This document shows, one piece after another, positions 12,591-33,554 of a DNA stretch of 40,489 bases (positions are counted from its first letter, which is position 1; the number at the start of each line of letters is the position of its first letter). The stretch lies in IMG/VR virus record IMGVR_UViG_2693429662_000008. The stretch is one strand, 5' to 3'. Source of the DNA: a virus (lineage: Duplodnaviria > Heunggongvirae > Uroviricota > Caudoviricetes). The notes under the pieces were generated by a model that worked only from the letters and a program-made list of their open reading frames with translations, searched no databases and was not told the DNA's origin. Both the position numbers and the translations under genes were made by a program.

Positions 12591-12675
12591 GCTGGGAAGG
12601 ATGAAGGAAAAACACCTTCAATGTAATTGAGCGGTGTTGTATGCTTTTTAGTACAACTTCAAGAGGATAACCAAA

Positions 12676-13389
12676 TTGGATAACAAGGAATATCAGAGGC
12701 ACTTTGGAATAATAACTGATGAATTACAAAAGCCTTCCGATAAACATTTGAGAGCATTTACGCAGGTTGCTGACATTAGAAAGTTTGAAATTGAGATGTA
12801 TTGGAAAAGAGCTACGTATTTCTGGACCATTATTGCTATTACTTTTACTGGTTATTTTGCTTTAGCCTCCGCAAATAGCTTTCCGTTCAAAAATGCATTT
12901 TCTCTTTTGCTTTCCAGTATGGGATCCGTTTTTACTCTTTCATGGTTTTTGGTAAACAGAGGTAGCAAATACTGGCAGGAAAACTGGGAAAATCACTTAG
13001 ACCTGATGGAAAACGGCATAACTGGGCCGCTCTATAAAACTGTACTCTCACGACCGTCAGTCGAAGCCAAAAAAAACGCACCTCAACTTGCGAGTACTGA
13101 TAAAGATTTTATCGACAAACATATCACCGGCCCCAAAAAAATATCAGCATCCAAAATTAACCAATTAGTTGCATTTTACTTGCTTGGCATATGGTTAATA
13201 TTAGTAATGACAACAATTACTAACATCTTAAAACTATCATTCTGGAGTGAATCCACGATAGAAGTAGTGTTGAGCGTGGGAGTTTTAATTTGGTCAGCAA
13301 TAGCCACTAGTTTAATGTTTTGTAAGTCAGCCACCTATACAGGAATACAGACTTCAGAGGCAAGAAAACGCTCTTCGAATTTGTTATAA
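12676..13389 (+). CDS. Cargo gene: predicted 4-TM inner-membrane protein of unknown function (possible abortive-infection or exclusion effector)
   Basis: 237 aa from a TTG start preceded by AAGAGGA. Four hydrophobic segments (about residues 50-68, 75-92, 164-185, 197-215) and a charged N-terminal region. AT-rich, opposite strand to the late operon, sits in the S-V moron slot. Confidence 0.7.
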   Translation: MDNKEYQRHFGIITDELQKPSDKHLRAFTQVADIRKFEIEMYWKRATYFWTIIAITFTGYFALASANSFPFKNAFSLLLSSMGSVFTLSWFLVNRGSKYWQENWENHLDLMENGITGPLYKTVLSRPSVEAKKNAPQLASTDKDFIDKHITGPKKISASKINQLVAFYLLGIWLILVMTTITNILKLSFWSESTIEVVLSVGVLIWSAIATSLMFCKSATYTGIQTSEARKRSSNLL

Positions 13390-13502
13390 CGTTGGTGATA
13401 CACTAATAAATTCATTTAAAGCCCTCAGTTTTGGGGGCATGTAATCTCTACTTTCTCACGGAAAGAGAGTCCAGGATGTACACCAGCGCTTGACGCGGAA
13501 AG

Positions 13503-13600
13503 CTAGTCACTGGTGGCAATACTGCGGGTGCGACATAGACTACGCAGGAAGCGCACAATATCCGGAAAGTAGGTTGTGTTTTCGTGTGGGAAAGGATGCC
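13503..13600 (-). pseudogene. Relic of a second gene V 5' end (degenerate duplicate of the V start region)
   Basis: Minus-strand sequence CATCCTTTCCCACACGAAAACACAACCTACTTTCCGGATATTGTGCGC aligns with the real V start CATCCTTCCCAGCATGAAAACACAATCCACTCTTCAGGACATTCAGCGC. ATG is mutated to ACG and there is a frameshift; similarity continues for roughly 90 nt by eye. Confidence 0.45.
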
Positions 13601-13657
13601 GCCTTAGAAGATCGGCGGCAATAGAGGTATGCAGTTCTATCTCTGGTAAAATTTTGT

Positions 13658-14734
13658 TTATTTTCGTTTGCCATAAGACTGGGTTAGAATTGGAGTAATA
13701 TCCTTAGTAAAGATATCTAGTCTTTCTTTTTCGGCTGAGAAAACATACTGTCTGGCTTGAATTACATTTTGCCTACTAATTAAGTTTGACACCTTTTCTG
13801 GTTTGCTTAGTGCAACTTTGGCACCCTTGAATATCAACGCTAAGCCCGGTGATATTGTAAAAATACATCCATTATCAAATGAAAAATCATTTTTTAAGAA
13901 AATAAAAGGAAAATCACTTGAAACAATGGCATATCCCTTAGGTGCTGAGTACAAATATACCCTACAACTACTCTCATTGGTGATTGAGGAAAAAGGTAAC
14001 GCCATAAATCTATGCATCTTTCTAAGTAAGTAAAACATTTCCCTCCGCTGTCCGCTGTCCGCATTAACTAGATACGTTCCTCCCTCCTTTAGTATAGATA
14101 ACAAAGACCTCCATTCAGAACGTGGGATTATGCTCGCACCAGAAGGAATGAGATCCTTATTAGTATTCAGTACTTTCTTGATGGTGGTGTTTATATTTTT
14201 TAATTTTGGCATGGAGCCTTTATCAAAAAAATCATCCATACCTTTGTTTCTATAACATAAAAAACGGGCCATGAAAATTGCCATGTTTTTTAAATCGTTG
14301 AAATCAATCTCATGCAAACCACTACATACTATCGAACGTGCGAATTTTTTTTCCGAAAGCTTGCCAAGCAACCAGTGTCTACGCACGAAATAATGACTAC
14401 CTGAAGCATTTTTAAAATGCTCCTTTAATTTATAAAATTGCCACATTGCGTCTACAAAATCAGGGTAACAATCCTCTAGTATTTTAAAACTGTCCTCAAT
14501 AAAGTTATCTCTATCCCCATCAATATAAAGAGTATGCCTTCGCTCTTGACCACAAATTTTTGTGGCATTAAGAAAAGTAATCCTTTCTTTTATTTGCTTT
14601 TTGGTGGCATCTGTTTTCACAAAACCATAAACAGTATCTTTCCCAGTCTTTGGGTCTTCAGATGTTATTTTAAAATGCCTGATATAAGTTGCAGGCAGAT
14701 AATGCTGATAGTTTTGAAAAGTTCCCTTTGACAT
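13658..14734 (-). CDS. Cargo gene: DUF4238-like protein, candidate single-gene anti-phage defence protein
   Basis: 358 aa from the ATG at 14734 (GGAGG 5 nt upstream); the ORF track TTG at 14746 is an alternative. N-terminal motif HYLPATYIRHF resembles the conserved start of DUF4238 proteins as I recall them (not verified by HMM). AT-rich, and starts 13 nt after the gene S stop. Confidence 0.75.
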   Translation of the reverse strand: MSKGTFQNYQHYLPATYIRHFKITSEDPKTGKDTVYGFVKTDATKKQIKERITFLNATKICGQERRHTLYIDGDRDNFIEDSFKILEDCYPDFVDAMWQFYKLKEHFKNASGSHYFVRRHWLLGKLSEKKFARSIVCSGLHEIDFNDLKNMAIFMARFLCYRNKGMDDFFDKGSMPKLKNINTTIKKVLNTNKDLIPSGASIIPRSEWRSLLSILKEGGTYLVNADSGQRREMFYLLRKMHRFMALPFSSITNESSCRVYLYSAPKGYAIVSSDFPFIFLKNDFSFDNGCIFTISPGLALIFKGAKVALSKPEKVSNLISRQNVIQARQYVFSAEKERLDIFTKDITPILTQSYGKRK

Positions 14735-14747
14735 AGTAACCTCCAAT

Positions 14748-15200
14748 TTACCAAGTCATAATTTTTTTAATGATAATATATTCAACCTCTTCAGTTAAAT
14801 CATTATTGAAACCAATGAGTGGTCGAGTGGGGTATTCAATCCGTCTGCTGTTAATGTTTGGGGCATCCTTTAACCCGTACTGATGCACCTTAGCCATACG
14901 CTGTACCTTGCCGGTAAATTCCACGACCGCCGCGTTATTCCCCGCCGTGGCTTTCATAAAGCGACTGGTACGGAGTTTGGCGAACATTTCCCGCTTAACC
15001 CGGCCTTTTTTGGCTTTTACCGGCTGGCGTTTTCGGGCGGCGTAAGGTGTCCCGTCCGGGGCTTTCTGCGTTTTAATCCGGCGCTGTTGACGGGCTCGCA
15101 GGGTCTTCGCGATATCTGCGGCCATTCTGCGACGGGCGGCAGGTGACAGCGCCGCTATCAGCCCCGCGAGCTTATCGTCAAAGGGTTTAAAGTCATTCAT
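14748..15200 (-). CDS. S: Tail completion protein S (P2 gpS)
   Basis: 150 aa, same length as P2 gpS; the 3' end is AT-rich, suggesting the C-terminus was remodelled by the adjacent insertion. Confidence 0.85.
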   Translation of the reverse strand: MNDFKPFDDKLAGLIAALSPAARRRMAADIAKTLRARQQRRIKTQKAPDGTPYAARKRQPVKAKKGRVKREMFAKLRTSRFMKATAGNNAAVVEFTGKVQRMAKVHQYGLKDAPNINSRRIEYPTRPLIGFNNDLTEEVEYIIIKKIMTW

Positions 15201-20655: not shown

Positions 20656-22425
20656 ATGACTACTACCAATGACACATCACTACTCAGCGACCCGCGACGA
20701 CAGGCCGCGCTTTTGTTCTGGCAGGGCTATTCCGTGCCACAAATCGCGGAGCAGTTACAGGTCAAGCGCCCCACGGTGCAGAGCTGGAAACAGCGCGATA
20801 AATGGGAAGAGACCGCCCCGTTAAACCGGGTTGAATTCACGCTTGAGGCACGGCTGATTCAGCTCTACGCAAAGCCCGACCTGACGGCTCACGACTTTAA
20901 GGTCGCGGATTTTCTGGCGCGCCAGATGGAGCGCCTCGCGCGGGTTAACCGCTACGGCCAGACCGGCAACGAAGCGGATTTAAACCCGAACGTGGCCAAC
21001 CGCAACAAAGGGGAAAAGAAGAAGCCGAAAAAGAATTTTTTCAGCGAAGAGGCTATCGAGAAACTCGAAGAGATTTTCCTCGAGCAGTCTTTCGACTATC
21101 AGCTCGAGTGGTGGCGCGCGGGGCTGGCGCACCGCATCAGGCACATCCTGAAATCGCGACAGATTGGCGCGACGTTCTATTTTGCGCGTGAGGCACTGTT
21201 ACAGGCGCTGAAGACAGGCCACAACCAGATATTTTTATCAGCCAGTAAGACACAGGCCTACGTGTTCCGAAAATACATCATCGCCTTTGCCCGACAGGCT
21301 GGCGTTGAACTCACCGGCGACCCGATTGTGCTCGGCAACAATGGCGCGGAGCTGATGTTTCTCGGTACCAATGCCAACACCGCACAGAGCCACAACGGCG
21401 ACCTGTATGTCGACGAAATTTTCTGGATCCCCAACTTCCAGAAACTGAAGCGTGTCGCCGGGGGTATGTCGTCACAGGAGCATTTGCGCACGACCTATTT
21501 TTCGACCCCCTCATCGCTGGCGCACGGAGCTTACCCGTTCTGGTCGGGTGAGCAGTTCAACAAGGGGCGCTCAGACAAGAGCGAGCGAGTCGATATCGAT
21601 ATCAGTCACGCCGCACTCGCGAGGGGCGTCGCCTGTCCTGACGGCCAGTGGCGACAGATTGTCACCATCGAGGACGCACTCGCCAAAGGGTGCACGCTGT
21701 TCAACATCGATACGTTAAAGCGCGAGAACAGTGTCGATGAGTTCCGCAACCTGTTTATGTGCGAGTTCGTCGACGATAAAGCGTCGGTATTCCCGTTCGA
21801 AGAGCTGCAACGCTGCATGGTCGACAGCCTCGAGAAATGGGAGGACTACGCGCCATTTGCCGACAGGCCATTCACTCATCGTCCGGTGTGGATTGGCTAC
21901 GACCCGTCATTACGTGGCGACAGCGCCGGATGCGTCGTTATCGCGCCGCCAGTCGTTGCCGGTGGCAAATTCCGCATCCTCGAGCGCCACCAGTGGAAAG
22001 GGATGGACTTCGCCCAACAGGCCGAATCCATTCGCGAGCTCACGCAGAAATACACTGTGGAATATATCGGTATCGATGCGACCGGGCTCGGTCAGGGCGT
22101 CTTCCAGCTCGTGCGCTCGTTCTACCCGGCCGCGCGTGAAATCCGCTACACGCCAGAAATGAAAACCTCAATGGTGCTCAAAGCCAAAGACACCATTCGC
22201 CGCGGTTGCCTCGAGTACGACGTCAGCGCAACCGATATCACGCAGTCGTTTATGTCTATCCGCAAAACCATGACCAGCAGCGGGCGCAGCTCGACCTATG
22301 AGGCCAGCCGCACCGAGGAAGCCAGTCACGCCGATCTCGCATGGGCAACCATGCACGTATTAATCAATGAGCCGCTGACCGCCGCGACCGGTGAGCAGTC
22401 ATCCAGCATCATGGAGTGGAACTAA
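20656..22425 (+). CDS. P: Terminase ATPase (large) subunit P (P2 gpP)
   Basis: 589 aa; divergently transcribed from O as in P2. Confidence 0.9.
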   Translation: MTTTNDTSLLSDPRRQAALLFWQGYSVPQIAEQLQVKRPTVQSWKQRDKWEETAPLNRVEFTLEARLIQLYAKPDLTAHDFKVADFLARQMERLARVNRYGQTGNEADLNPNVANRNKGEKKKPKKNFFSEEAIEKLEEIFLEQSFDYQLEWWRAGLAHRIRHILKSRQIGATFYFAREALLQALKTGHNQIFLSASKTQAYVFRKYIIAFARQAGVELTGDPIVLGNNGAELMFLGTNANTAQSHNGDLYVDEIFWIPNFQKLKRVAGGMSSQEHLRTTYFSTPSSLAHGAYPFWSGEQFNKGRSDKSERVDIDISHAALARGVACPDGQWRQIVTIEDALAKGCTLFNIDTLKRENSVDEFRNLFMCEFVDDKASVFPFEELQRCMVDSLEKWEDYAPFADRPFTHRPVWIGYDPSLRGDSAGCVVIAPPVVAGGKFRILERHQWKGMDFAQQAESIRELTQKYTVEYIGIDATGLGQGVFQLVRSFYPAAREIRYTPEMKTSMVLKAKDTIRRGCLEYDVSATDITQSFMSIRKTMTSSGRSSTYEASRTEEASHADLAWATMHVLINEPLTAATGEQSSSIMEWN

Positions 22426-23462
22426 TGAGCAAGAAACGCAACAAGCGCCAGCAGCAGCCGCGCACTCAAAACCACACCGCCGCACCGGCGCAGAGCATGG
22501 AAGCATTCACTTTTGGTGAGCCGACGCCGGTACTCGACCGCCGCGATATTCTCGACTACGTCGAGTGCATCGACAACGGCCAGTGGTACGAGCCGCCGGT
22601 GAGCTTTTCCGGGCTGGCGAAGAGCATGCGCGCCGCCGTGCATCACAGCTCGCCGATTTACGTGAAGCGTAATATTCTGGTATCGACCTACATCCCGCAC
22701 CCGCTGTTATCCCGTCAGGACTTCACCCGGTTTGCGCTCGACTATCTGGTGTTTGGTAATGCGTTTATCGAAGAGCGTCGCGGCCTGACCGGCAAGCCGT
22801 TAAAACTGGAAACTTCACCGGCGAAATATACCCGCCGTGGCATCGAGGATGACGTGTACTGGTATATTCAGTCCTACACGCAGCCGCACCAGTTCGCGCC
22901 CGGCTCCGTCTTCCACCTGCTCGAGCCCGATATTAATCAGGAGCTTTACGGGATGCCGGAATACCTGAGCGCGCTCAATTCAGCCTGGCTGAATGAATCG
23001 GCGACACTGTTCCGTCGCAAGTATTACCAGAACGGCGCACATGCGGGTTACATCATGTACGTGACCGACGCGGCGCAAAGCAGCGCTGACGTCGAGGCGC
23101 TGCGAAAGGCGATGCGCGACTCAAAAGGGCTCGGCAATTTTAAGAACCTATTTTTCTACGCACCAAACGGTAAAGCCGACGGGATTAAAATTGTGCCGCT
23201 GAGCGAAGTTGCCACGAAGGATGATTTTTTTAATATCAAGAAAGTCAGCGCCGCTGACCTTCTCGACGCGCACCGCATCCCATTCCAGCTTATGGGCGGT
23301 AAGCCCGAGAACGTCGGCTCAGTGGGTGACGTTGAGAAGGTGGCAAAGGTCTTTGTGCGTAACGAACTGACCCCGCTACAGGCGCGGTTTATGGAGCTGA
23401 ACGAGTGGGCGGGTGAAGAGATTATCCGCTTCGAAAAATATAGCCTCGGCGACGACGAGTAA
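22416..23462 (+). CDS. Q: Portal (capsid vertex) protein Q (P2 gpQ)
   Basis: 348 aa immediately downstream of and overlapping P. Confidence 0.9.
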   Translation: MELMSKKRNKRQQQPRTQNHTAAPAQSMEAFTFGEPTPVLDRRDILDYVECIDNGQWYEPPVSFSGLAKSMRAAVHHSSPIYVKRNILVSTYIPHPLLSRQDFTRFALDYLVFGNAFIEERRGLTGKPLKLETSPAKYTRRGIEDDVYWYIQSYTQPHQFAPGSVFHLLEPDINQELYGMPEYLSALNSAWLNESATLFRRKYYQNGAHAGYIMYVTDAAQSSADVEALRKAMRDSKGLGNFKNLFFYAPNGKADGIKIVPLSEVATKDDFFNIKKVSAADLLDAHRIPFQLMGGKPENVGSVGDVEKVAKVFVRNELTPLQARFMELNEWAGEEIIRFEKYSLGDDE

Positions 23463-23638
23463 CCCCACCTACAGCCGCCCGTCGTGGCGGCTTTACCCCC
23501 ACCGCACACAACACCCTCAGCGCCACGACACGCCGTCGCCGCTTCGCTTCACCTCGTAACTCACCCACTACAACAACAACGCCACAGCGACGCGCCCAGG
23601 CGCTGAATAAATAAATTAAATACCACGCTCAGCGCGCA

Positions 23639-23657
23639 ATGCTATCCCCGCCACGCC
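23639..23657. other. Candidate cos site (19-nt cohesive-end sequence)
   Basis: Minus-strand reading GGCGTGGCGGGGATAGCAT differs at one position from the phage 186 cohesive end as I remember it (GGCGTGGCGGGGAAAGCAT). Location just beyond the portal gene is as expected for P2-family phages. Relies on recalled sequence. Confidence 0.45.
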
Positions 23658-23803
23658 TGCCCGCTTTATGGGTCGGTTTTAATGCAGTTGCATGACCACT
23701 CTGGATCTGCGCCAGCTCTGGCATTACACGTCCAGAACTAGCAAGCCTTGCGAATGCAAAACCATGCTTCTTATACATGCACAGCTAAAAACAGAAAATA
23801 ACA

Positions 23804-23832
23804 TAAAAAAACCGGCATCAAGATGCCGGTTT
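23804..23832 (-). terminator. Rho-independent terminator downstream of the acyltransferase gene
   Basis: Hairpin CCGGCAT / ATGCCGG with a 4-nt loop, followed on the minus strand by a run of seven or eight T. Confidence 0.65.
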
Positions 23833-23929
23833 AGTTCATATCATATCATGCTTGCACTTGTGGCCTATAAATGTGCTGAAAATACTATTAAGTAAAACAT
23901 CCATGATCATCGTTCTGCTGAAGCCCTGT

Positions 23930-25147
23930 TTAATTAGCTTTATCAAGGCGTCCCCCCACCACCATCCGCTTGTAATTTATTGCGAACAACTTAATTTTTT
24001 CAGGGAACTTTGACGCCAAAATTATTGACTTTCTGTCTACATATGAATAAAAGGGCATTGATATCAAAATAGTTATCATCGAAGTTAAGATAAATGTAAC
24101 AAACGCACCAACGGACGGCGACGCAATGTTTTTGTAAACCCAAAAACCAACTATAGATATAACAAATGGATGAAGCAAGTATATTGAAAATGACAACTTC
24201 CCAATAAACAAGACTACATTTTTGCTCATCCCCCTTAAACATCTCCCATTCACAAAGACAGAAGCAATAATCAAAAAAGAACCAAGCGATATTGTAAACT
24301 CTGGCCATTGTATTAATATACCGCATTGAAACTGAAGGTAGAGGTAAAATTCAACCAGATCTTTATACGCAGTGCTCGCCGGTGCATACCCAACAAGATA
24401 AAGGCCAATAAACAACATAAGAAGCGATACAAACTTTCTTAACCGTCCATTATTTTCACTTATCTCGAAAGTTGATAAAAACACACCAGAAAGGAAAAGC
24501 CCATAATAAATTACATTAATACTACCAGACAAAAACATGCAAACAAATGAAATAAACGACAACCAGCGAAGAATGGTCTTGTTCTCACCAAACAGAGATA
24601 TAAATCCGTATACCAATATAGAACCAAAAAACTCAATACTAATAGTCCACAGAACATAGTTATACTTTATATTACCAAAAAGCATAGCGCCAAATGAAGC
24701 ATCCCATATGGCTGACACTATATTCCCATCAAAACTAAACGCAGTCATTAACGGCATTGATGCAGCGGGGCTATCCTTATCCGGAAAAAAGCCCAACAAC
24801 ATTATAAAATAGCAAATAATCACAGATGCTGCTACGGGAACCCCAAGCCTAATGTATCTCTTCAATGCTGATGCTTGTATATAACGTATTTCGTTATTAT
24901 TTTTTTGGCAACTCAGTGACAAAACCAACCCGCTCAAAACAAAGAATAAGCTAACAGCAGATCCCCCCTTATAGAAAAAAGTAAAAGGGCTATTAAATAA
25001 ATTTTCTTGCCACTTGCTATCAAACATACTGCCAGAATGCACCGAAGGTATAAACATTAAAAATGAATGCGATAAAACGACAGCCATGGCTGCCACACCT
25101 CTTATCCCATCAAAGATTTTTACATTATTTCTCTCATTATCACTCAT
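23930..25147 (-). CDS. Cargo gene: membrane acyltransferase, acyltransferase-3 family (O-antigen/polysaccharide acetyltransferase-like; probable lysogenic conversion gene)
   Basis: 405 aa, about ten hydrophobic helices, N-terminal FDGIRGVAAMAVVLSHS motif typical of acyltransferase-3 (Oac-like) proteins. Strongly AT-rich; sits between cos and the replication region where P2 carries tin/old. Confidence 0.85.
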   Translation of the reverse strand: MSDNERNNVKIFDGIRGVAAMAVVLSHSFLMFIPSVHSGSMFDSKWQENLFNSPFTFFYKGGSAVSLFFVLSGLVLSLSCQKNNNEIRYIQASALKRYIRLGVPVAASVIICYFIMLLGFFPDKDSPAASMPLMTAFSFDGNIVSAIWDASFGAMLFGNIKYNYVLWTISIEFFGSILVYGFISLFGENKTILRWLSFISFVCMFLSGSINVIYYGLFLSGVFLSTFEISENNGRLRKFVSLLMLFIGLYLVGYAPASTAYKDLVEFYLYLQFQCGILIQWPEFTISLGSFLIIASVFVNGRCLRGMSKNVVLFIGKLSFSIYLLHPFVISIVGFWVYKNIASPSVGAFVTFILTSMITILISMPFYSYVDRKSIILASKFPEKIKLFAINYKRMVVGGRLDKAN

Positions 25148-25440
25148 GCAAAAAACCTTTTATAATAAAAAATGTCATTTCGATTAACGTATTGTATTGG
25201 TTATTATTGTGTTATAACTGACAATCAACCTTAAAAAAACGCGGCATTATAGCACCTTAAGCCTGTTGTATGAATATCATTATTGTTTTGACAGGAAGAG
25301 TTCCGTTTACGCCCCACCTAACCTTCGGAGCACTGAGTAGTGCTCCCAATGAGGTTGGAATAAGGGGAGATTCAAAAAATAGCTGACCATTCTATGCAGG
25401 CAACCCAACTACCAGCATACAACTTGTTTTTTCTCGCAAC

Positions 25441-25623
25441 TTACTCAGCCTTTGTTAATCGTTCTTCAGCATGGGTTGCAGAGAAAACCAGTGAAAAGGA
25501 GTTATTTTTCATCAAGTTGCCTCTCACTATTTCTGCAATCAAATTCAATGCGATTTCACGGTCTCTTTCCTTACAAGTCCCTTCAGCCGTTAGACGCGCA
25601 ATCATTTCGACTCGCTCAATCAT
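25441..25623 (-). CDS. Small ORF under a LexA box (position of the 186 tum antirepressor; possibly truncated)
   Basis: 60 aa from the ATG at 25623 (MIERVEMIARLTAEG...), 46 bp downstream of a consensus LexA box. The longer ORF-track start at 25734 would translate the operator itself and is rejected. Function inferred only from position and regulation. Confidence 0.35.
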   Translation of the reverse strand: MIERVEMIARLTAEGTCKERDREIALNLIAEIVRGNLMKNNSFSLVFSATHAEERLTKAE

Positions 25624-25668
25624 AACGTGCTCACTTAATTCTCTATCCACACAACCTCCACAACGAGA

Positions 25669-25688
25669 TACTGTATAAACATACAGTA
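25669..25688. promoter_or_regulatory. LexA operator (SOS box)
   Basis: TACTGTATAAACATACAGTA: palindromic CTGT-N8-ACAG with flanking TA, close to the consensus TACTGTATATATATACAGTA. Confidence 0.7.
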
Positions 25689-25766
25689 ACACGTGTTGAT
25701 AAAAAATGTGAAGGAAAAAAACCAATAAATACACTGTATGTGCATGATATGGATGAATATTAACGG

Positions 25767-28007
25767 TTATATTTTCATTGCCAGTTCAGTTAAAACCGCA
25801 ACGCGATTGAGGATTTCTGTAGCTTTGGTCTGATGTTCCTTAGCTCTATCTTGATGCGATGGCGCTGCGGAAAATATTTCGCCTTTGGCCGTTCCGCGTA
25901 ACCATTTACCATCAAAACAACTTTTACCACCGACCATCAGGTGCAGGGCTTCGCCCCGGCTGATAACGATGCCAGTTGTCAGATGTATCTCGTCGATAAT
26001 TTTCGCTAAAACTGCGTTTTGCTCATTCGTTCCGTGAATGAATTTTCGCCGTATTTGTGGTTTTTGCTTCCTGAGTCGGTTTGTCAGCTCTCGTCTTTCA
26101 CGTCGACTCAAGGGTTTTGATAAATCGAGTTCCGGTGGATCGCTTTCGCTTCCCGTATAGTTATTGACAGAACTCCGAGAGGGCGCAGGAGCGCCCTTAA
26201 CGTCAACGGCCAAATCAACGGCACGCTTCGGCACAATTTTCCACTGCGTTAACCGGGTTAAAATCGGGGTGCCAGCGCCGACAGCAGAGTCGTAGACGCC
26301 ACGAATGCAGACGGTTTCCTCACCATACTGGTTAAACTCGGGGCGCGGCTCATACAGCGTGCGCACCTGTAAATCATCGCGACAGACAAACGGACCACCC
26401 TGCGCACTAACGTAACCAGCCCAGTCACCGGCGTCAGCGGCATCATGGACGGCAGCAAACTCAACGCTCAGACCGTGCGCGGTCTCGGTATCAGCGAGAC
26501 GACGTAATTCACGGTAGACCGTCACCGGCGCACCGCCGATAAACTGGAACTGACGGATGTGCCAGCGCGCCGCCCATGCTGATACGGCGGGGGCTGTCTC
26601 TTTCAGCAGCTCACCGCTTTCGTCATCGGTTTCACCATCAAGAGCATATCCGTCGATGTTTTTGGAAATGTATTTAGCGACATAGCCGGTAGCGCTGCCC
26701 TTTTCTGGGTCAATGGCTTCGGCATGAAAGCGCGCTTTTTTGGCTTTATCGCTTCTCAGTTCATGGCGGTCTTCCTCCCACGCATAATCACGGATGATGA
26801 GACGCACACTCTCGACGTCTTCCGGCAACATGAACATAAGCATGTGCCAGTGCGGCGTTCCGTCGTGATGAGGCTCAGCAACACGGATGCCGAAAATGCG
26901 GATTTCTTCCCGGTGTAGCTTGGCGCGTATGCGTGCCCAAAGACCGGTTAGATAGCTCTGCGTGTCCGAAGGGCTGGCACCGTTCCATTTGCTATTACGG
27001 TAGCCCGCTTTAGTCGTGGCGTGATATTTAGACGGTGCGGTTAAAGTGTAAAACTCACCGACATAACCGAGCTCATTGCAGATATTTTCAAACCCACGGA
27101 TGCGGGTCATCAGCTCGCAGCGACGTATTGCAGGGTTAGCAACCGAACCATCGTATTTTTCAATCAGACTGATGCGGTTGCCGTCTTCGTCTTCGAGCTC
27201 CAGTCCTTTAAGAAATTCGCGCGTGCGGCGTTTCTGCTCGCGCCAGTCAGTCACGCAGTTTTTACTCGCGTAGGCGTGCTTTTTCTTACTGACGTTGCCA
27301 ACAGCAATTTGTAGATGTTCGCGCCATGCAGACGCAATGCGACGTAAACGACCACGCCACCAAACCTCATTAAACATGCGCATTACTGCCGGTGCGATTT
27401 CATCCTCACCAAAATATTTTTTAGTCACACGCTCCCATTTCGGCGGTGTAACGTTGAATTGCAGGGAAATAAAACCGGCGCGCATGTACCAGGCGTACAG
27501 CGTTTTGAGTTCGCTAAATCCGGTGTCATCAATATCAGCCAGTTCAGCACGAATGAAATTAGCGATATCAGCGGCAAGCAGGTCAATATCAGCGCGCGAC
27601 ATATCCGGGAGGCGGTTAAATCTGGCGACCATATTGACCATGCGTGACGCCAGATATTGCATAAGCTGGGTATCAAAATGACCATCGAAAACAGAGGCTG
27701 ATACATTGCTGTTGATGCCCGAGCACTCATATTTTTTTGCGACGAGTTCAAGACGTGGCAATGCCTTTTTGCAGAAGCTGATTAAAAAGGCATTGGCTCG
27801 TTGACTGCCCTGATTTTGCTCCAGTACCGCAGCGGTACGATAAACATCAAAGCGCACACACTCTGGCTGGAGAGAAAGCACCGTTCTCGCATGCAGCAAA
27901 GCCGCGAACATACGGTCGCGGCGATGCTGTTGGTCATAGGTAAGATATGGGCTGGCTAATGCCGACCGTGGGGCATTCCACGGAAACGCGTAAACTACAC
28001 CCGTCAT
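25767..28007 (-). CDS. A: Replication initiation protein A (P2 gpA family rolling-circle endonuclease)
   Basis: 746 aa; size and position match P2 gpA. Confidence 0.9.
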   Translation of the reverse strand: MTGVVYAFPWNAPRSALASPYLTYDQQHRRDRMFAALLHARTVLSLQPECVRFDVYRTAAVLEQNQGSQRANAFLISFCKKALPRLELVAKKYECSGINSNVSASVFDGHFDTQLMQYLASRMVNMVARFNRLPDMSRADIDLLAADIANFIRAELADIDDTGFSELKTLYAWYMRAGFISLQFNVTPPKWERVTKKYFGEDEIAPAVMRMFNEVWWRGRLRRIASAWREHLQIAVGNVSKKKHAYASKNCVTDWREQKRRTREFLKGLELEDEDGNRISLIEKYDGSVANPAIRRCELMTRIRGFENICNELGYVGEFYTLTAPSKYHATTKAGYRNSKWNGASPSDTQSYLTGLWARIRAKLHREEIRIFGIRVAEPHHDGTPHWHMLMFMLPEDVESVRLIIRDYAWEEDRHELRSDKAKKARFHAEAIDPEKGSATGYVAKYISKNIDGYALDGETDDESGELLKETAPAVSAWAARWHIRQFQFIGGAPVTVYRELRRLADTETAHGLSVEFAAVHDAADAGDWAGYVSAQGGPFVCRDDLQVRTLYEPRPEFNQYGEETVCIRGVYDSAVGAGTPILTRLTQWKIVPKRAVDLAVDVKGAPAPSRSSVNNYTGSESDPPELDLSKPLSRRERRELTNRLRKQKPQIRRKFIHGTNEQNAVLAKIIDEIHLTTGIVISRGEALHLMVGGKSCFDGKWLRGTAKGEIFSAAPSHQDRAKEHQTKATEILNRVAVLTELAMKI

Positions 28008-31797: not shown

Positions 31798-33261
31798 TCA
31801 TTTGCCGAGCATCTCTCTTAAATCTTGAGCCCAATGCGTATCGTCAGATTGGATCGTTCCTTCAACATCAGTAAGCAGTTTTTGCTCAAGAATTGTCTCG
31901 GCATTTCGACTCTGGCTAAAGTATCTTACCGTTTCGGCAAAGTCCCAATTCTCATCTGCAAGCAGGCGCGGCTGGAAAGAATGACAGTAGATTGCAGCTA
32001 TATCTTTACCCATAAAGTCAAAATCAGAAATCAATTCGCAAATTTTCATATCACGTGCAAATTCGATCTGAGGGCCATGCAAGGTTTCATATCCAATATG
32101 AATTATTGTTGATTCTCCAATCGGAGCCTGCTTTACAGCCTGAACAAGTACCCTTTTTATATCTTTTGCCTTTTTATCGACAGACTCATCAGCGAGACAA
32201 ATCCATTTTGCGCAGAAAGGCATTTCTATCTCATCAATGAATACATTTATTGTACTAAGTTCATCATTGCTAAAAGTGCATAACTTTGCGTTGCAAACCA
32301 TTGTATAACTTCCAAACGGGTCATACTGGTCATCTAATAAGGAATTTAATTGAGGAGAAGGATATTTCACATGCCACTTTCTTAAGTGGTTATCCACCCG
32401 TTCCATATCAATTAAGTTAGCCTGAACCAAAATATCATCGCTCTCACATACTGCAATCTTACCTTTCACAAGATGATCAGAGCCGTAAATTTTTGCTACA
32501 GCACCGAGAAACACATCGATACGCGTTTTTACTATTTCAGTTTTGAAAATCACATCAAAAAAAACTGGCTTATGGTATCGAGTAATCAATGGTCGAGCCA
32601 TTTCCCACCGCTTCAACCACTCCGCCCTTTCTTCTTCTGAGTACTGAGTCACCTTTGCTAATCGCTTGCACTCAACATAAAAAATATCAGTGCCTTTAAC
32701 AACTTTGAGGTCTGGTGTTTTATGAGCTCCTGTTTCTGGAATGAACTCAACTTCCCAGCCATTTTTCAAATAGCAGATAGCCACAACCAACTCAAACAAA
32801 ATGGAATCAGGCTGGTTGATTGTCTTAACAAGCAAGTCATTTAATTTGGATTCAATACCTTTGACCTGCTTCAACTTTTCGCTATGTTCACCGATAACTG
32901 CGAAAAAATGCCAAATTCTTGACGACTGAGCTGGCTCATCTACTGTTGGGCGATCAGCCAAAGATTCAACTAAGTACAAATACCATGCAATCCAGTCATC
33001 ATAGAATGCCAGGCGTGCATCTTTCTCATGGAAAGAAACGTCAGATTTTCCTGTGAAAAGGCGCTCCGACATTTCGCGGAAGTAAGCCAAAACCGCCCCA
33101 CGACGCTCAACCCATTTATCTTCACCCATTACATCAATAAACCAACGGTATGCTGTTTTTATCTCTTTGACTAATGGTGCATCATGTCTATGATTGAAGC
33201 GTTCAAAAAATGCAGCATACTCATCTTCAACACTCTGATTTTTGGTATTTTTTTCACCCAT
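31798..33261 (-). CDS. Cargo gene: large protein with a PD-(D/E)xK nuclease motif, candidate defence/abortive-infection nuclease
   Basis: 487 aa from the ATG at 33261 (AGGTGGA upstream; the ORF-track start at 33294 is an alternative). Motif FELVVAICYLKNGWEVEF...TPDLKVVKGTDIFYVECKRL fits the E...PD...(D/E)xK pattern. No P-loop seen. AT-rich; lies between int and the distal att core, convergent with int. Confidence 0.75.
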   Translation of the reverse strand: MGEKNTKNQSVEDEYAAFFERFNHRHDAPLVKEIKTAYRWFIDVMGEDKWVERRGAVLAYFREMSERLFTGKSDVSFHEKDARLAFYDDWIAWYLYLVESLADRPTVDEPAQSSRIWHFFAVIGEHSEKLKQVKGIESKLNDLLVKTINQPDSILFELVVAICYLKNGWEVEFIPETGAHKTPDLKVVKGTDIFYVECKRLAKVTQYSEEERAEWLKRWEMARPLITRYHKPVFFDVIFKTEIVKTRIDVFLGAVAKIYGSDHLVKGKIAVCESDDILVQANLIDMERVDNHLRKWHVKYPSPQLNSLLDDQYDPFGSYTMVCNAKLCTFSNDELSTINVFIDEIEMPFCAKWICLADESVDKKAKDIKRVLVQAVKQAPIGESTIIHIGYETLHGPQIEFARDMKICELISDFDFMGKDIAAIYCHSFQPRLLADENWDFAETVRYFSQSRNAETILEQKLLTDVEGTIQSDDTHWAQDLREMLGK

Positions 33262-33505
33262 CGTGATTCCACCTAGCTTATGCGGTTTATGCATTCAAGA
33301 TTAACTAACTTGCATGTTATCATTTTTGATATCAGGCAAGTGTTAGTCACGCTATAAAGGCTAGGTTGCCGTTTAAAGGCAATATGATAAGTGGCGATAA
33401 AGTGGCGGTAGAAATGGCTGATAATGTCTAATCACTGGCAAACGCTGGCCATTTATGTCAATGATAAATAAAGCAAACTATTGATTTTCGGTTGTTCAGG
33501 TAGGA

Positions 33506-33554
33506 ACTCATAATCGCTTGGTCGCTGGTTCAAGTCCAGCAAGGGCCACCAAAT
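33506..33554. repeat. Prophage attachment core (distal copy, partial tRNA 3' end)
   Basis: Direct repeat of 1605-1653 with one mismatch; sequence upstream of it is unrelated to the tRNA 5' half, so this is a partial tRNA duplicate typical of integration into a tRNA gene. Confidence 0.85.

What the first reader, a model, noticed from the sequence alone, without database searches (positions are those of the whole stretch)
23930..25147. Acyltransferase-3 family membrane protein as lysogenic-conversion cargo at the cos-proximal hotspot
This 405-aa polytopic membrane protein has the N-terminal motif pattern of Oac-type O-acetyltransferases. It lies in a strongly AT-rich block between cos and the replication genes, with its own terminator (23804-23832). 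In P2 this position carries tin/old. Prophage-borne Oac-like enzymes acetylate O-antigen or other surface polysaccharides, changing serotype and blocking receptor use by related phages.
Basis: partly seen in the sequence, partly recalled or inferred. Interest (0 to 1): 0.6.

Follow-up and report, generated by a model that had tools for sequence, protein, structure and literature searches.

The report
Prophage-borne membrane acyltransferase cargo gene
A phage-186-like prophage in E. coli carries, next to its DNA-packaging site, a self-contained foreign gene for a membrane acyltransferase that most likely acetylates a cell-surface sugar polymer; it is a sound but fairly ordinary example of a known kind of prophage cargo, and its target sugar is unknown.

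Summary

The prophage is 186-like rather than P2-like. The cassette replaces orf97, both 186 terminators and the DinI half of tum in the LexA-controlled SOS operon. Diverged copies (71-78% aa) sit in the same slot of two other 186-like elements, one a decayed remnant in which only this gene is intact. dN/dS is 0.08-0.13. More distant relatives lie beside tailspike or tail-fibre genes, or inside O-antigen/capsule clusters.

The best reading is a lysogenic-conversion acyltransferase acting on a surface glycan. The acceptor is unproven. In the five complete genomes with a ~100%-identical cassette region, the O8/O9-type O-antigen locus as annotated lacks wzm/wzt.

The hotspot is published, RefSeq already names the protein, and an unrelated AT3 (NeaT) is known in another 186-like prophage. 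Verdict: new member of a known kind, modest interest.

The parts
23930..25147 (-). AT3-only acyltransferase CDS (405 aa); RefSeq WP_053881158.1 'acyltransferase family protein' in identical genomes
25246..25274 (-). Predicted own sigma-70 promoter: TTCATA, 17-nt spacer, TG-extended TATAAT; about 100 nt upstream of the ATG
   Evidence: 10 of 12 consensus match with TG. The -35 TTCAT and GGTGCTATrAT are invariant in the window, L003 and L004 within a spacer of only 64% mean identity. Activity not tested.
23801..23832 (-). Intrinsic terminator of the cassette (10-bp stem, 5 G-C pairs, T-run)
   Evidence: Homologous in L003 and L004.
23792..25448 (.). Foreign 1,657-bp AT-rich cargo block (promoter, AT3 gene, terminator) replacing 186 t95a, orf97, t95b and the 3' part of tum
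   Evidence: blastn against phage 186: homology only at 23658-23791 and from 25449 onward. 186 annotation. GC 0.36.
23639..23657 (-). cos cohesive-end sequence
   Evidence: 18 of 19 match to the annotated 186 cos.
25441..25650 (-). Truncated tum: 69-aa ORF (GTG start) keeping the antirepressor half; the DinI half is lost. Upstream neighbour and possible co-transcription partner of the AT3 gene
   Evidence: Aligns to 186 Tum residues 1-67 at 82%. Matches phrog_1993 at positions 1-62 of 64. Tum is an antirepressor + DinI fusion, split into two genes in Fels-2 and PSP3 (PMC3121763). RefSeq labels it a pseudogene.
25669..25712 (-). p95-type SOS promoter (-35 TTCACA 25712-25707; -10 TACTGT 25688-25683) with LexA box TACTGTATGTTTATACAGTA (25688-25669)
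   Evidence: Read from the sequence, positions mapped from the 186 annotation. No terminator is predicted between the tum remnant and the AT3 gene, so read-through is possible.

Best explanation
The gene is a self-contained moron (own promoter, one CDS, own terminator). It encodes a stand-alone AT3/TmAT-fold integral membrane acyltransferase and sits in the cos-proximal A-Q hotspot of a ~31.9-kb phage-186-like prophage integrated at a tRNA(CAT) gene of E. coli.

Shown here: family membership, intact acyl-CoA-site residues, the predicted 10-helix TmAT fold, foreign AT-rich origin, purifying selection, recurrence in the same slot, and persistence after the prophage has decayed.

Inferred mechanism, by analogy with OafB, Oac and HGSNAT: acetyl-CoA (or another short acyl-CoA) enters a central pore from the cytoplasm. 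It is held by R16, R97 and R100, and its thioester is presented near H27 and Y323. [quoted passage not shown]

Inferred biology: the gene is transcribed in the lysogen from its own promoter, possibly boosted by read-through from the LexA-controlled p95 promoter during SOS. It alters a surface polysaccharide (O-antigen or capsule repeat unit the most likely class) and so changes antigenicity and recognition by glycan-specific phages.

For: Sharp cargo junctions against 186. Promoter elements are invariant in three loci that are 64% identical around them. dN/dS 0.08-0.13. Same slot in L004 with a full-length tum. L003 is a remnant between host pyruvate kinase and tRNA(CAT)/rpoD in which gene A and tum are destroyed but the AT3 ORF is intact.

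Contexts of homologues:
- 43% homologue directly after the tailspike gene at the end of a P22-like prophage.
- 39% homologue after a beta-helix tail protein.
- 46% homologue inside a Wzx/Wzy cluster with a sialyltransferase.
- 36% homologue inside an rml/glycosyltransferase O-antigen-type cluster.
- Roughly 24 matches to tail-fibre/tailspike Pfam families among the 80 nearest neighbours of related viral-contig AT3 genes.

Sf6 Oac is the nearest of the three characterised AT3s tested.
Against: There is no biochemical or expression evidence. The acceptor cannot be read from the sequence, and similarity to any characterised AT3 is low: Oac 26% over half the length, WecH only across TM1-2, OpgC none, NeaT none.

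In the five complete genomes with a ~100%-identical cassette region, the O8/O9-type locus as annotated has an IS1, a truncated wbdD and no wzm/wzt. In strain 10 the group-1 capsule locus also carries an IS1. The two most obvious acceptors may therefore be impaired there.

The promoter is only a consensus match plus conservation. The promoter scan as a whole was not enriched over shuffles (7 found, 7.1 expected). One carrier has a +1 frameshift in a T6 tract.
Confidence: 0.7

Rival explanations
1. NeaT-like host-fitness factor. The enzyme acylates an envelope component other than O-antigen (group-1 capsule/K-LPS, ECA, LPS core or another exopolysaccharide). Its main benefit is to the bacterium in the animal host (altered aggregation, phagocyte interaction), not phage exclusion.
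For: NeaT is a PF01757 protein in the 186-like prophage phi-b0847 of CFT073. It is AT-rich, expressed from its own promoter and needed for bacteremia fitness, with no defined acceptor (PMC3573123). Most carriers listed here are human isolates. The O-antigen export genes appear to be missing in the closest carriers, while a capsule locus is present. The AT3 gene survives after prophage decay in L003, which fits a host-side benefit.
Against: NeaT is not detectably related beyond the family motifs and lies at the other moron position. Homologues of the window protein associate mainly with tailspike/tail-fibre genes and O-antigen-type clusters, which points to phage-receptor glycans.
Confidence: 0.2
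2. SOS-coupled exclusion module replacing Orf97. The gene is expressed mainly by read-through from p95 during induction. It modifies the LPS-core receptor used by P2/186-type phages (and P4-type satellites packaged in their capsids), blocking superinfection or re-adsorption.
For: It occupies exactly the orf97 position of the LexA-controlled operon. 186 Orf97 is annotated as blocking 186 infection when expressed from a plasmid. The LexA box and p95 are conserved, and no terminator is predicted between the tum remnant and the AT3 gene.
Against: The cassette has its own conserved promoter. Five carriers have ISKox3 inside the LexA box yet keep an intact AT3. L003 has lost a functional tum/p95 context but keeps the AT3. 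That P2/186 use LPS core as receptor is recalled, not tested here. No homologue context points to core biosynthesis genes.
Confidence: 0.07
3. Inert passenger or decaying gene with no current function.
For: One carrier has a frameshift in a homopolymer tract. The gene is found in only 37 of 5,426 complete E. coli genomes.
Against: dN/dS is 0.08-0.13 across three lineages with dS of 0.95 or more. All catalytic-site residues are retained. The ORF is intact where the surrounding prophage has decayed.
Confidence: 0.03

Closest known systems
Sf6 Oac (OacA) and other phage-borne AT3-only O-antigen O-acetyltransferases (OacB/C/D, PhiV10 Oac)
   Same: Stand-alone AT3 domain without an SGNH domain. R-X10-H, FFxxSG and RXXR motifs. 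Single-gene AT-rich moron with its own promoter and terminator in a temperate phage. Oac is the nearest of the three characterised AT3s compared (26% identity over 202 aa, E=1e-6; hhalign probability 96%).
   Different: 405 aa versus 333 aa, with longer periplasmic loops at 37-61 and 122-164. Alignment is significant only over the N-terminal half. Different phage type (186-like myovirus versus P22-like podovirus) and slot (cos-proximal A-Q versus tailspike/int). Acceptor unknown.
NeaT (c0970) of E. coli CFT073 prophage phi-b0847 (PMC3573123)
   Same: PF01757 acyltransferase carried as an AT-rich moron by a 186/P2-like prophage of E. coli. NeaT is shown to have its own promoter and to be expressed in the lysogen. 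Acceptor biochemically undefined.
   Different: No significant pairwise or profile similarity, so these are independent captures. NeaT sits at moron position 2 (between G and FI), the window gene at moron position 1 (A-Q). 343 versus 405 aa.
P2-family cos-proximal hotspot between gpA and gpQ (tin/old in P2; Rousset et al. 2022, PMC9122126)
   Same: Same interval, adjacent to cos, AT-rich, with variable content among relatives: DUF2188, DUF3696, or runs of hypothetical genes in other E. coli 186-like prophages.
   Different: The published hotspot cargo is mainly intracellular anti-phage systems. An acyltransferase is not mentioned in the main text of PMC9122126 or PMC13586616, and PADLOC has no model for this protein.
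Phage 186 SOS operon p95-tum-t95a-orf97-t95b
   Same: The LexA box, p95 and the first 67 codons of tum are conserved. The cargo gene lies in the orf97 position and is followed by a terminator just before cos.
   Different: orf97, t95a, t95b and the DinI half of tum are replaced. The AT3 protein is unrelated to Orf97.
OafA/OafB (Salmonella) and OatA: AT3-SGNH fusion acetyltransferases; HGSNAT as structural reference
   Different: No 11th helix and no SGNH domain. The GG-F/Y-xGV-D motif specific to fused proteins is not kept (GGSAVS here, with S where OafA has D39).

Membership tests
AT3 / Acyl_transf_3 (PF01757), TmAT superfamily | Pfam HMM match above the gathering threshold over the full domain | tested here: met
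   89.1 bits versus cutoff 31, profile positions 4-325 of 326.
AT3 / Acyl_transf_3 (PF01757), TmAT superfamily | TMH1 DxxR...H (R/K-X10-H) motif | tested here: met
   D13-G-I-R16 and H27. R16 and H27 are invariant in the 40-sequence alignment. Definitions.
AT3 / Acyl_transf_3 (PF01757), TmAT superfamily | TMH2 V-x-x-F-F-x-(I/V/L)-S-G / FxxxxG motif | tested here: met
   V65-S-L-F-F-V-L-S-G73. V65, F68, F69, S72 and G73 are invariant (definitions).
AT3 / Acyl_transf_3 (PF01757), TmAT superfamily | TMH3 RxxR motif on the cytoplasmic side | tested here: met
   R97-Y-I-R100, both invariant. The loop 81-102 carries 5 K+R, consistent with a cytoplasmic location.
AT3 / Acyl_transf_3 (PF01757), TmAT superfamily | TMH9 SxxxY motif and conserved TMH6 Gly | tested here: met
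   S319-F-S-I-Y323 and G221 are invariant (definition).
AT3 / Acyl_transf_3 (PF01757), TmAT superfamily | 10-helix TmAT fold | tested here: met
AT3 / Acyl_transf_3 (PF01757), TmAT superfamily | Acyl-CoA-dependent acyl transfer to an extracytoplasmic acceptor | not testable with these tools
   Needs biochemistry or genetics.
Oac-type phage O-antigen O-acetyltransferases | AT3-only architecture, phage-borne single-gene moron | tested here: met
   Single Pfam domain, 405 aa. Cassette with promoter and terminator inside a prophage.
Oac-type phage O-antigen O-acetyltransferases | Close sequence relationship (orthology) to Oac/OacB-D | tested here: not met
   Tested against Sf6 Oac (OacA) only: 26% identity over 202 aa, with hhalign aligning only about 200 columns. 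It is a separate subfamily: 105 cluster representatives at E<=1e-30 among 1.84 billion.
Oac-type phage O-antigen O-acetyltransferases | O-antigen is the acceptor; serotype conversion | tested here: inconclusive
   Homologue contexts favour O-antigen or capsule-type glycans. But the O-antigen export genes are not annotated in the closest carriers. Needs chemistry.
P2-family cos-proximal hotspot cargo (moron position 1) | Located between replication gene A and portal gene Q, next to cos | tested here: met
   A at 25767-28007, portal at 22416-23462, cos at 23639-23657. Definitions from PMC9122126 and PMC3573123.
P2-family cos-proximal hotspot cargo (moron position 1) | Content varies among otherwise related prophages | tested here: met
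   1,218 E. coli genomes match the flanks, and only 37 carry this cargo. Others carry DUF2188, DUF3696 or hypothetical genes. CFT073 carries TIGR02391/Hypoth_Ymh.
P2-family cos-proximal hotspot cargo (moron position 1) | Anti-phage activity | not testable with these tools
   No PADLOC model matches. Needs plaque assays.
NeaT family | Sequence relationship to CFT073 NeaT | tested here: not met
   Best BLASTP E=0.17; hhalign probability 7.5%.
Phage 186 SOS operon | LexA-boxed p95 promoter followed by full-length tum and orf97 | tested here: not met
   The LexA box and p95 are present, but tum is cut after 67 homologous codons and orf97 is absent.

The most novel reading that the evidence does not exclude
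The AT3 cassette may be a functional replacement for 186 Orf97, an exclusion gene wired into the SOS operon. Read-through from the LexA-controlled p95 promoter would boost acylation of the LPS core, or another receptor used by P2/186-type virions (and by P4-type satellites packaged in them), at the moment of induction. This would protect induced cells and their kin from superinfection and spare progeny from being lost on debris. It would be a receptor-modifying exclusion system coupled to the SOS response, in a hotspot so far known for intracellular defence systems.
Probability: 0.07. Interest if true: 0.6.

Novelty: new member of a known kind. Interest (0 to 1): 0.3.

Why it matters
Prophage-borne glycan acyltransferases change serotype, vaccine epitopes and phage susceptibility. 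This subfamily has no characterised member. The genomes carrying the cassette at 95-100% identity are mostly human isolates, several with ESBL, CRE or MRSN strain names. If it acetylates capsule or O-antigen, it would affect serotyping and phage-therapy host range in those strains.

It would also show that the P2/186 cos-proximal hotspot, catalogued mainly for intracellular defence systems, carries surface-modifying conversion genes too. The comparison set found here gives a tidy system for studying how morons are captured and then outlive their phage: the same cassette with a full-length tum, with a truncated tum, and in a decayed remnant.

Tried and rejected
- Sequence search of PDB chains: nothing relevant.
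- The afdb50 library was unavailable.
- NCBIfam gave only a sub-threshold MdoC/OpgC match over the C-terminal 70 residues (26 bits versus cutoff 338). Direct comparison with OpgC was not significant, so an OPG succinyltransferase assignment is rejected.
- WecH similarity is confined to TM1-2.
- PADLOC: no defence-system model matches the AT3 or the other cargo genes.
- The hairpin-rich stretch between tum and the AT3 promoter (25280-25445) looked like a possible RNA element. Rfam gave nothing above threshold, folding energy is no better than shuffles (z=-0.84), and the hairpin is not conserved in L003. Rejected.
- No canonical terminator lies between the tum remnant and the AT3 gene.
- No GATC sites upstream, so Dam/OxyR-type phase variation as in gtr/oafB is unlikely.
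- The 62-aa ORF upstream of the stand-alone DinI gene in CFT073 phi-b0847 is not homologous to the window's Tum N-half.
- The literature search for 8xMP/RipA/DUF4238 was uninformative.
- Two scripts failed on trivial errors (entirely; after printing the L003 and L004 results used here). One search was rerun.

Full report
OBSERVATION. The ORF at 23930-25147 on the minus strand is real: 405 aa with an ATG start. It matches Pfam PF01757 (Acyl_transf_3) at 89 bits against a 31-bit cutoff, over profile positions 4-325 of 326, and PHROG 3333 'O-acetyltransferase' at 6e-28. GC is 0.36 here, against 0.55-0.59 in the neighbouring phage genes. The flanking genes are a P2-family portal gene (22416-23462) and replication gene A (25767-28007).

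WHAT THE ELEMENT IS. The window is nearly identical to E. coli chromosomes (76 mismatches over 37 kb to CP048330), where RefSeq already annotates the gene as 'acyltransferase family protein'. The prophage is a relative of phage 186 (CI, CII, Fil, DUF2732, TraR, A) rather than of P2 itself. A 36-bp direct repeat (1605-1640 and 33506-33541) overlapping the 3' part of a tRNA(CAT) gene delimits a ~31.9-kb prophage. cos lies at 23657-23639, 18 of 19 identical to the annotated 186 cos. The AT3 stop codon is therefore about 270 bp from cos.

ANATOMY OF THE SLOT. In 186 the interval from A to cos is the LexA-controlled SOS operon: p95, tum, the partial terminator t95a, orf97 and t95b. blastn against 186 shows homology only at 23658-23791 and from 25449 onward. 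A 1,657-bp foreign block (23792-25448) has therefore replaced t95a, orf97, t95b and the 3' part of tum.

The p95 promoter and a near-consensus LexA box (TACTGTATGTTTATACAGTA, 25688-25669) are retained. The tum remnant is a 69-aa ORF (25650-25441) that aligns with Tum residues 1-67 and matches the 64-position phrog_1993 almost end to end. According to PMC3121763, Tum is a fusion of an antirepressor N-half and a DinI-like C-half, and the two halves are separate genes in Fels-2 and PSP3. The junction here falls at that domain boundary. RefSeq's 'pseudogene' label may therefore hide a still-functional antirepressor; this is an inference.

A SELF-CONTAINED, SELECTED CASSETTE. About 100 nt upstream of the ATG there is a promoter-like site, TTCATA-17 nt-TGcTATAAT (25274-25246). 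The promoter scan as a whole was not enriched over shuffles, so the match alone means little. Comparison with other loci gives it weight.

The 71%-identical homologue P0003 lies in the same slot (A, tum, AT3, cos, portal) of another 186-like prophage, L004, this time with a full-length 146-aa Tum. The 78%-identical P0002 lies in L003. L003 is a remnant squeezed between host pyruvate kinase and tRNA(CAT)/rpoD. Only about 370 bp of gene A survive there and tum has an early stop, but the AT3 ORF is intact.

In the three-way alignment of the upstream spacer (64% mean identity), the -35 TTCAT and the GGTGCTATrAT extended -10 are invariant. The three ATGs align, giving proteins of ~405 aa in all three; the gene callers had chosen later starts. 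Nei-Gojobori dN/dS is 0.13, 0.08 and 0.09 for the three pairs, with dS of 0.95 or more. The gene is under strong purifying selection and outlives its phage.

THE PROTEIN. The defining AT3/TmAT features were taken from PMC7448272, PMC9558356, PMC9833829 and PMC12423673. They are all present, and all invariant in a 40-sequence subfamily alignment:
- D13xxR16...H27 (R-X10-H)
- V65xxF68F69xLS72G73
- R97xxR100
- G221
- S319xxxY323

There is no SGNH domain and no 11th helix, so it is an AT3-only enzyme. The mechanism I assign follows these models and is not tested here: acyl-CoA enters a central pore from the cytoplasm, the arginines hold the 3'-phosphate, H27 and Y323 sit near the thioester, and the acyl group passes to a periplasmic glycan.

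WHICH AT3? Three characterised AT3-only enzymes were fetched and compared:

| Enzyme | Result |
|---|---|
| Sf6 Oac | 26% over 202 aa, E=1e-6; hhalign probability 96% over ~200 columns |
| E. coli WecH | matches only across TM1-2 |
| E. coli OpgC | no significant match |

An exhaustive phmmer search of 1.84 billion cluster representatives finds 5,116 relatives at E<=1e-3 but only 105 at E<=1e-30, nearly all AT3-only proteins of ~380-420 aa. None of the named hits is a characterised enzyme. The protein is therefore a member of the AT3 family but not of the Oac lineage, and acceptor specificity cannot be inherited by homology.

CONTEXT OF RELATIVES. Neighbourhoods of homologues point to glycan acceptors that serve as phage receptors:

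| Homologue | Identity | Context |
|---|---|---|
| P0006 | 43% | directly after the tailspike gene at the end of a P22-like prophage, beside host dsbB/nhaB |
| P0010 (Pantoea) | 39% | after an 838-aa beta-helix tail protein at a prophage end |
| P0008 | 46% | inside a Wzx/Wzy polysaccharide cluster with a PM0188-type sialyltransferase |
| P0031 (Pseudomonas putida) | 36% | inside an rmlA/B/D + glycosyltransferase + WbpL-type cluster |
| P0013 | 40% | about 4 kb from a P2-type portal/terminase pair |

In IMG/VR, 130 relatives were found. Only the two 99%-identical contigs use the 186-type slot. For the next 48 loci by similarity I extracted the nearest ORF of at least 120 aa on each side, dropped duplicate loci, and scanned the resulting 80 neighbours against Pfam. 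That gave about 24 matches to tail-fibre/tailspike-type families, followed by integrase and lysis families. This is the pattern expected of enzymes that modify glycans used as phage receptors.

CAVEAT ON THE ACCEPTOR. In CP048330 the his-proximal O8/O9-type polymannan locus reads manC, manB, ugd, IS1, a 267-bp wbdD fragment, wbdA, wbdB, wbdC, with no wzm/wzt annotated. An upstream group-1 capsule locus (wzi-wza-wzb-wzc...wcaJ) carries another IS1. The same ugd-IS1-wbdD-fragment-wbdA junction is present in 13 complete genomes, including all five reported at 100.0% identity across the 2.4-kb cassette region. If O-antigen export is really lost there, the O-antigen cannot be the relevant acceptor in that lineage. 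I could not check the other carriers, nor whether wzm/wzt lie elsewhere in those genomes.

WHAT IS ALREADY KNOWN. The A-Q, cos-proximal hotspot is published. PMC9122126 describes it with tin/old in P2, and PMC3573123 calls it 'moron position 1'. Its content varies among E. coli relatives: DUF2188, DUF3696, or runs of hypothetical genes. Neither PMC9122126 nor PMC13586616 mentions an acyltransferase there in the main text.

The nearest biological precedent is NeaT of CFT073. It is a PF01757 protein at 30% GC, with its own promoter, expressed in the lysogen and needed for bacteremia fitness. It is carried by prophage phi-b0847, which by its gene content is also 186-like, but at moron position 2 between G and FI. 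NeaT and the window protein show no significant similarity, so the two P2-type moron positions captured different AT3 lineages independently.

REGULATION. No terminator is predicted between the tum remnant and the AT3 gene, so SOS-driven read-through from p95 is possible in addition to the cassette promoter. Against dependence on p95: five carriers have ISKox3 inserted at 25675-25682, inside the LexA box, with the AT3 cassette untouched, and L003 keeps the AT3 without a working tum. There are no GATC sites upstream, so gtr/oafB-style phase variation is unlikely. One carrier has a +1 change in a T6 tract, which could be a real frameshift or an assembly error.

VERDICT. The refinements are these:
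- The frame of reference is the 186 SOS operon.
- The cassette removed orf97 and the DinI half of tum.
- The protein is not an Oac orthologue.
- The acceptor is open and may not be O-antigen in the closest carrier lineage.

This is a new, uncharacterised member of a known kind, already annotated generically in RefSeq. Interest is modest (0.3).

Noticed in passing
window 25441-25650 (-): The tum homologue is cut at the boundary between its antirepressor half and its DinI half, leaving a 69-aa ORF that matches the 64-position phrog_1993 almost end to end. RefSeq calls it a DinI-family pseudogene, but by analogy with the split tum of Fels-2 and PSP3 it may still be a working SOS antirepressor.
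   Followed up: partly
window 25669-25712 (-); L102 2578-3893: The LexA box and p95 promoter of the 186 SOS operon are conserved. In five complete E. coli genomes an ISKox3 element is inserted at 25675-25682, inside the LexA box. This probably uncouples the prophage from SOS induction while leaving the AT3 cassette intact.
   Followed up: partly
window 12600-14750: A second AT-rich island (GC 0.36-0.40) lies between baseplate gene V and virion-morphogenesis gene S, which is not one of the two classical P2 moron positions. It holds an 8xMP/RipA octameric membrane protein (12676-13389, PF24838, 124 bits) and a DUF4238 protein (13658-14746). There is no PADLOC match and the function is unknown.
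   Followed up: partly
window 31798-33294 (-): A 498-aa AT-rich ORF with no Pfam or PADLOC match lies between the integrase gene and the right attachment repeat. It looks like a third cargo gene of the prophage.
   Followed up: no
window 1575-1650 and 1605-1640 / 33506-33541: A 36-bp direct repeat overlapping the 3' part of a tRNA(CAT) gene marks the prophage ends (about 31.9 kb). The right-hand copy is what RefSeq calls 'tRNA-OTHER'. L003 also has a tRNA(CAT) beside its remnant, next to rpoD, which suggests the same integrase specificity at a paralogous tRNA.
   Followed up: partly
L003 1-5664: A 186-like prophage remnant from a different enterobacterial host (flanks ~45-47% GC), lying between pyruvate kinase and tRNA(CAT)/rpoD. 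Only a ~370-bp fragment of gene A, a stop-interrupted tum and the cos-side stretch survive, but the AT3 gene with its promoter and terminator is intact.
   Followed up: yes
L015 (NZ_CP048330 1762001-1792000): In the host genome the O8/O9-type polymannan locus has an IS1 next to a 267-bp wbdD fragment and no annotated wzm/wzt. The upstream group-1 capsule locus has another IS1 within or next to a truncated GT2 gene. The ugd-IS1-wbdD-fragment-wbdA junction is shared by 13 complete genomes, including all five with a ~100%-identical AT3 cassette region.
   Followed up: partly
window 24784-24790; L103: One carrier (CM136175) has a +1 change in the T6 tract at codon ~120 of the AT3 gene, which splits the annotation in two. 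This may be a real frameshift or a homopolymer assembly error.
   Followed up: partly
L099 7001-15137: A 40%-identical member of the same AT3 subfamily lies about 4 kb from a P2-type portal/terminase pair in an unrelated genome (GCA_900581005.1), with Fic, radical-SAM and a UmuC fragment on the other side. This is possibly another cos-proximal capture.
   Followed up: no
L104 (CFT073 895001-940000), 22672-25685: The NeaT-carrying prophage phi-b0847 is 186-like. At moron position 1 it has a small ORF, a stand-alone DinI gene, two hypothetical genes and a TIGR02391/Hypoth_Ymh protein. The small ORF is not homologous to the window's Tum N-half.
   Followed up: partly
window 1-1574: Outside the prophage, next to the tRNA, is a very AT-rich stretch (GC 0.31-0.41) with two ORFs (56-664 and 683-1015, minus strand) that have no significant Pfam match. 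It may be another island at the same tRNA.
   Followed up: no
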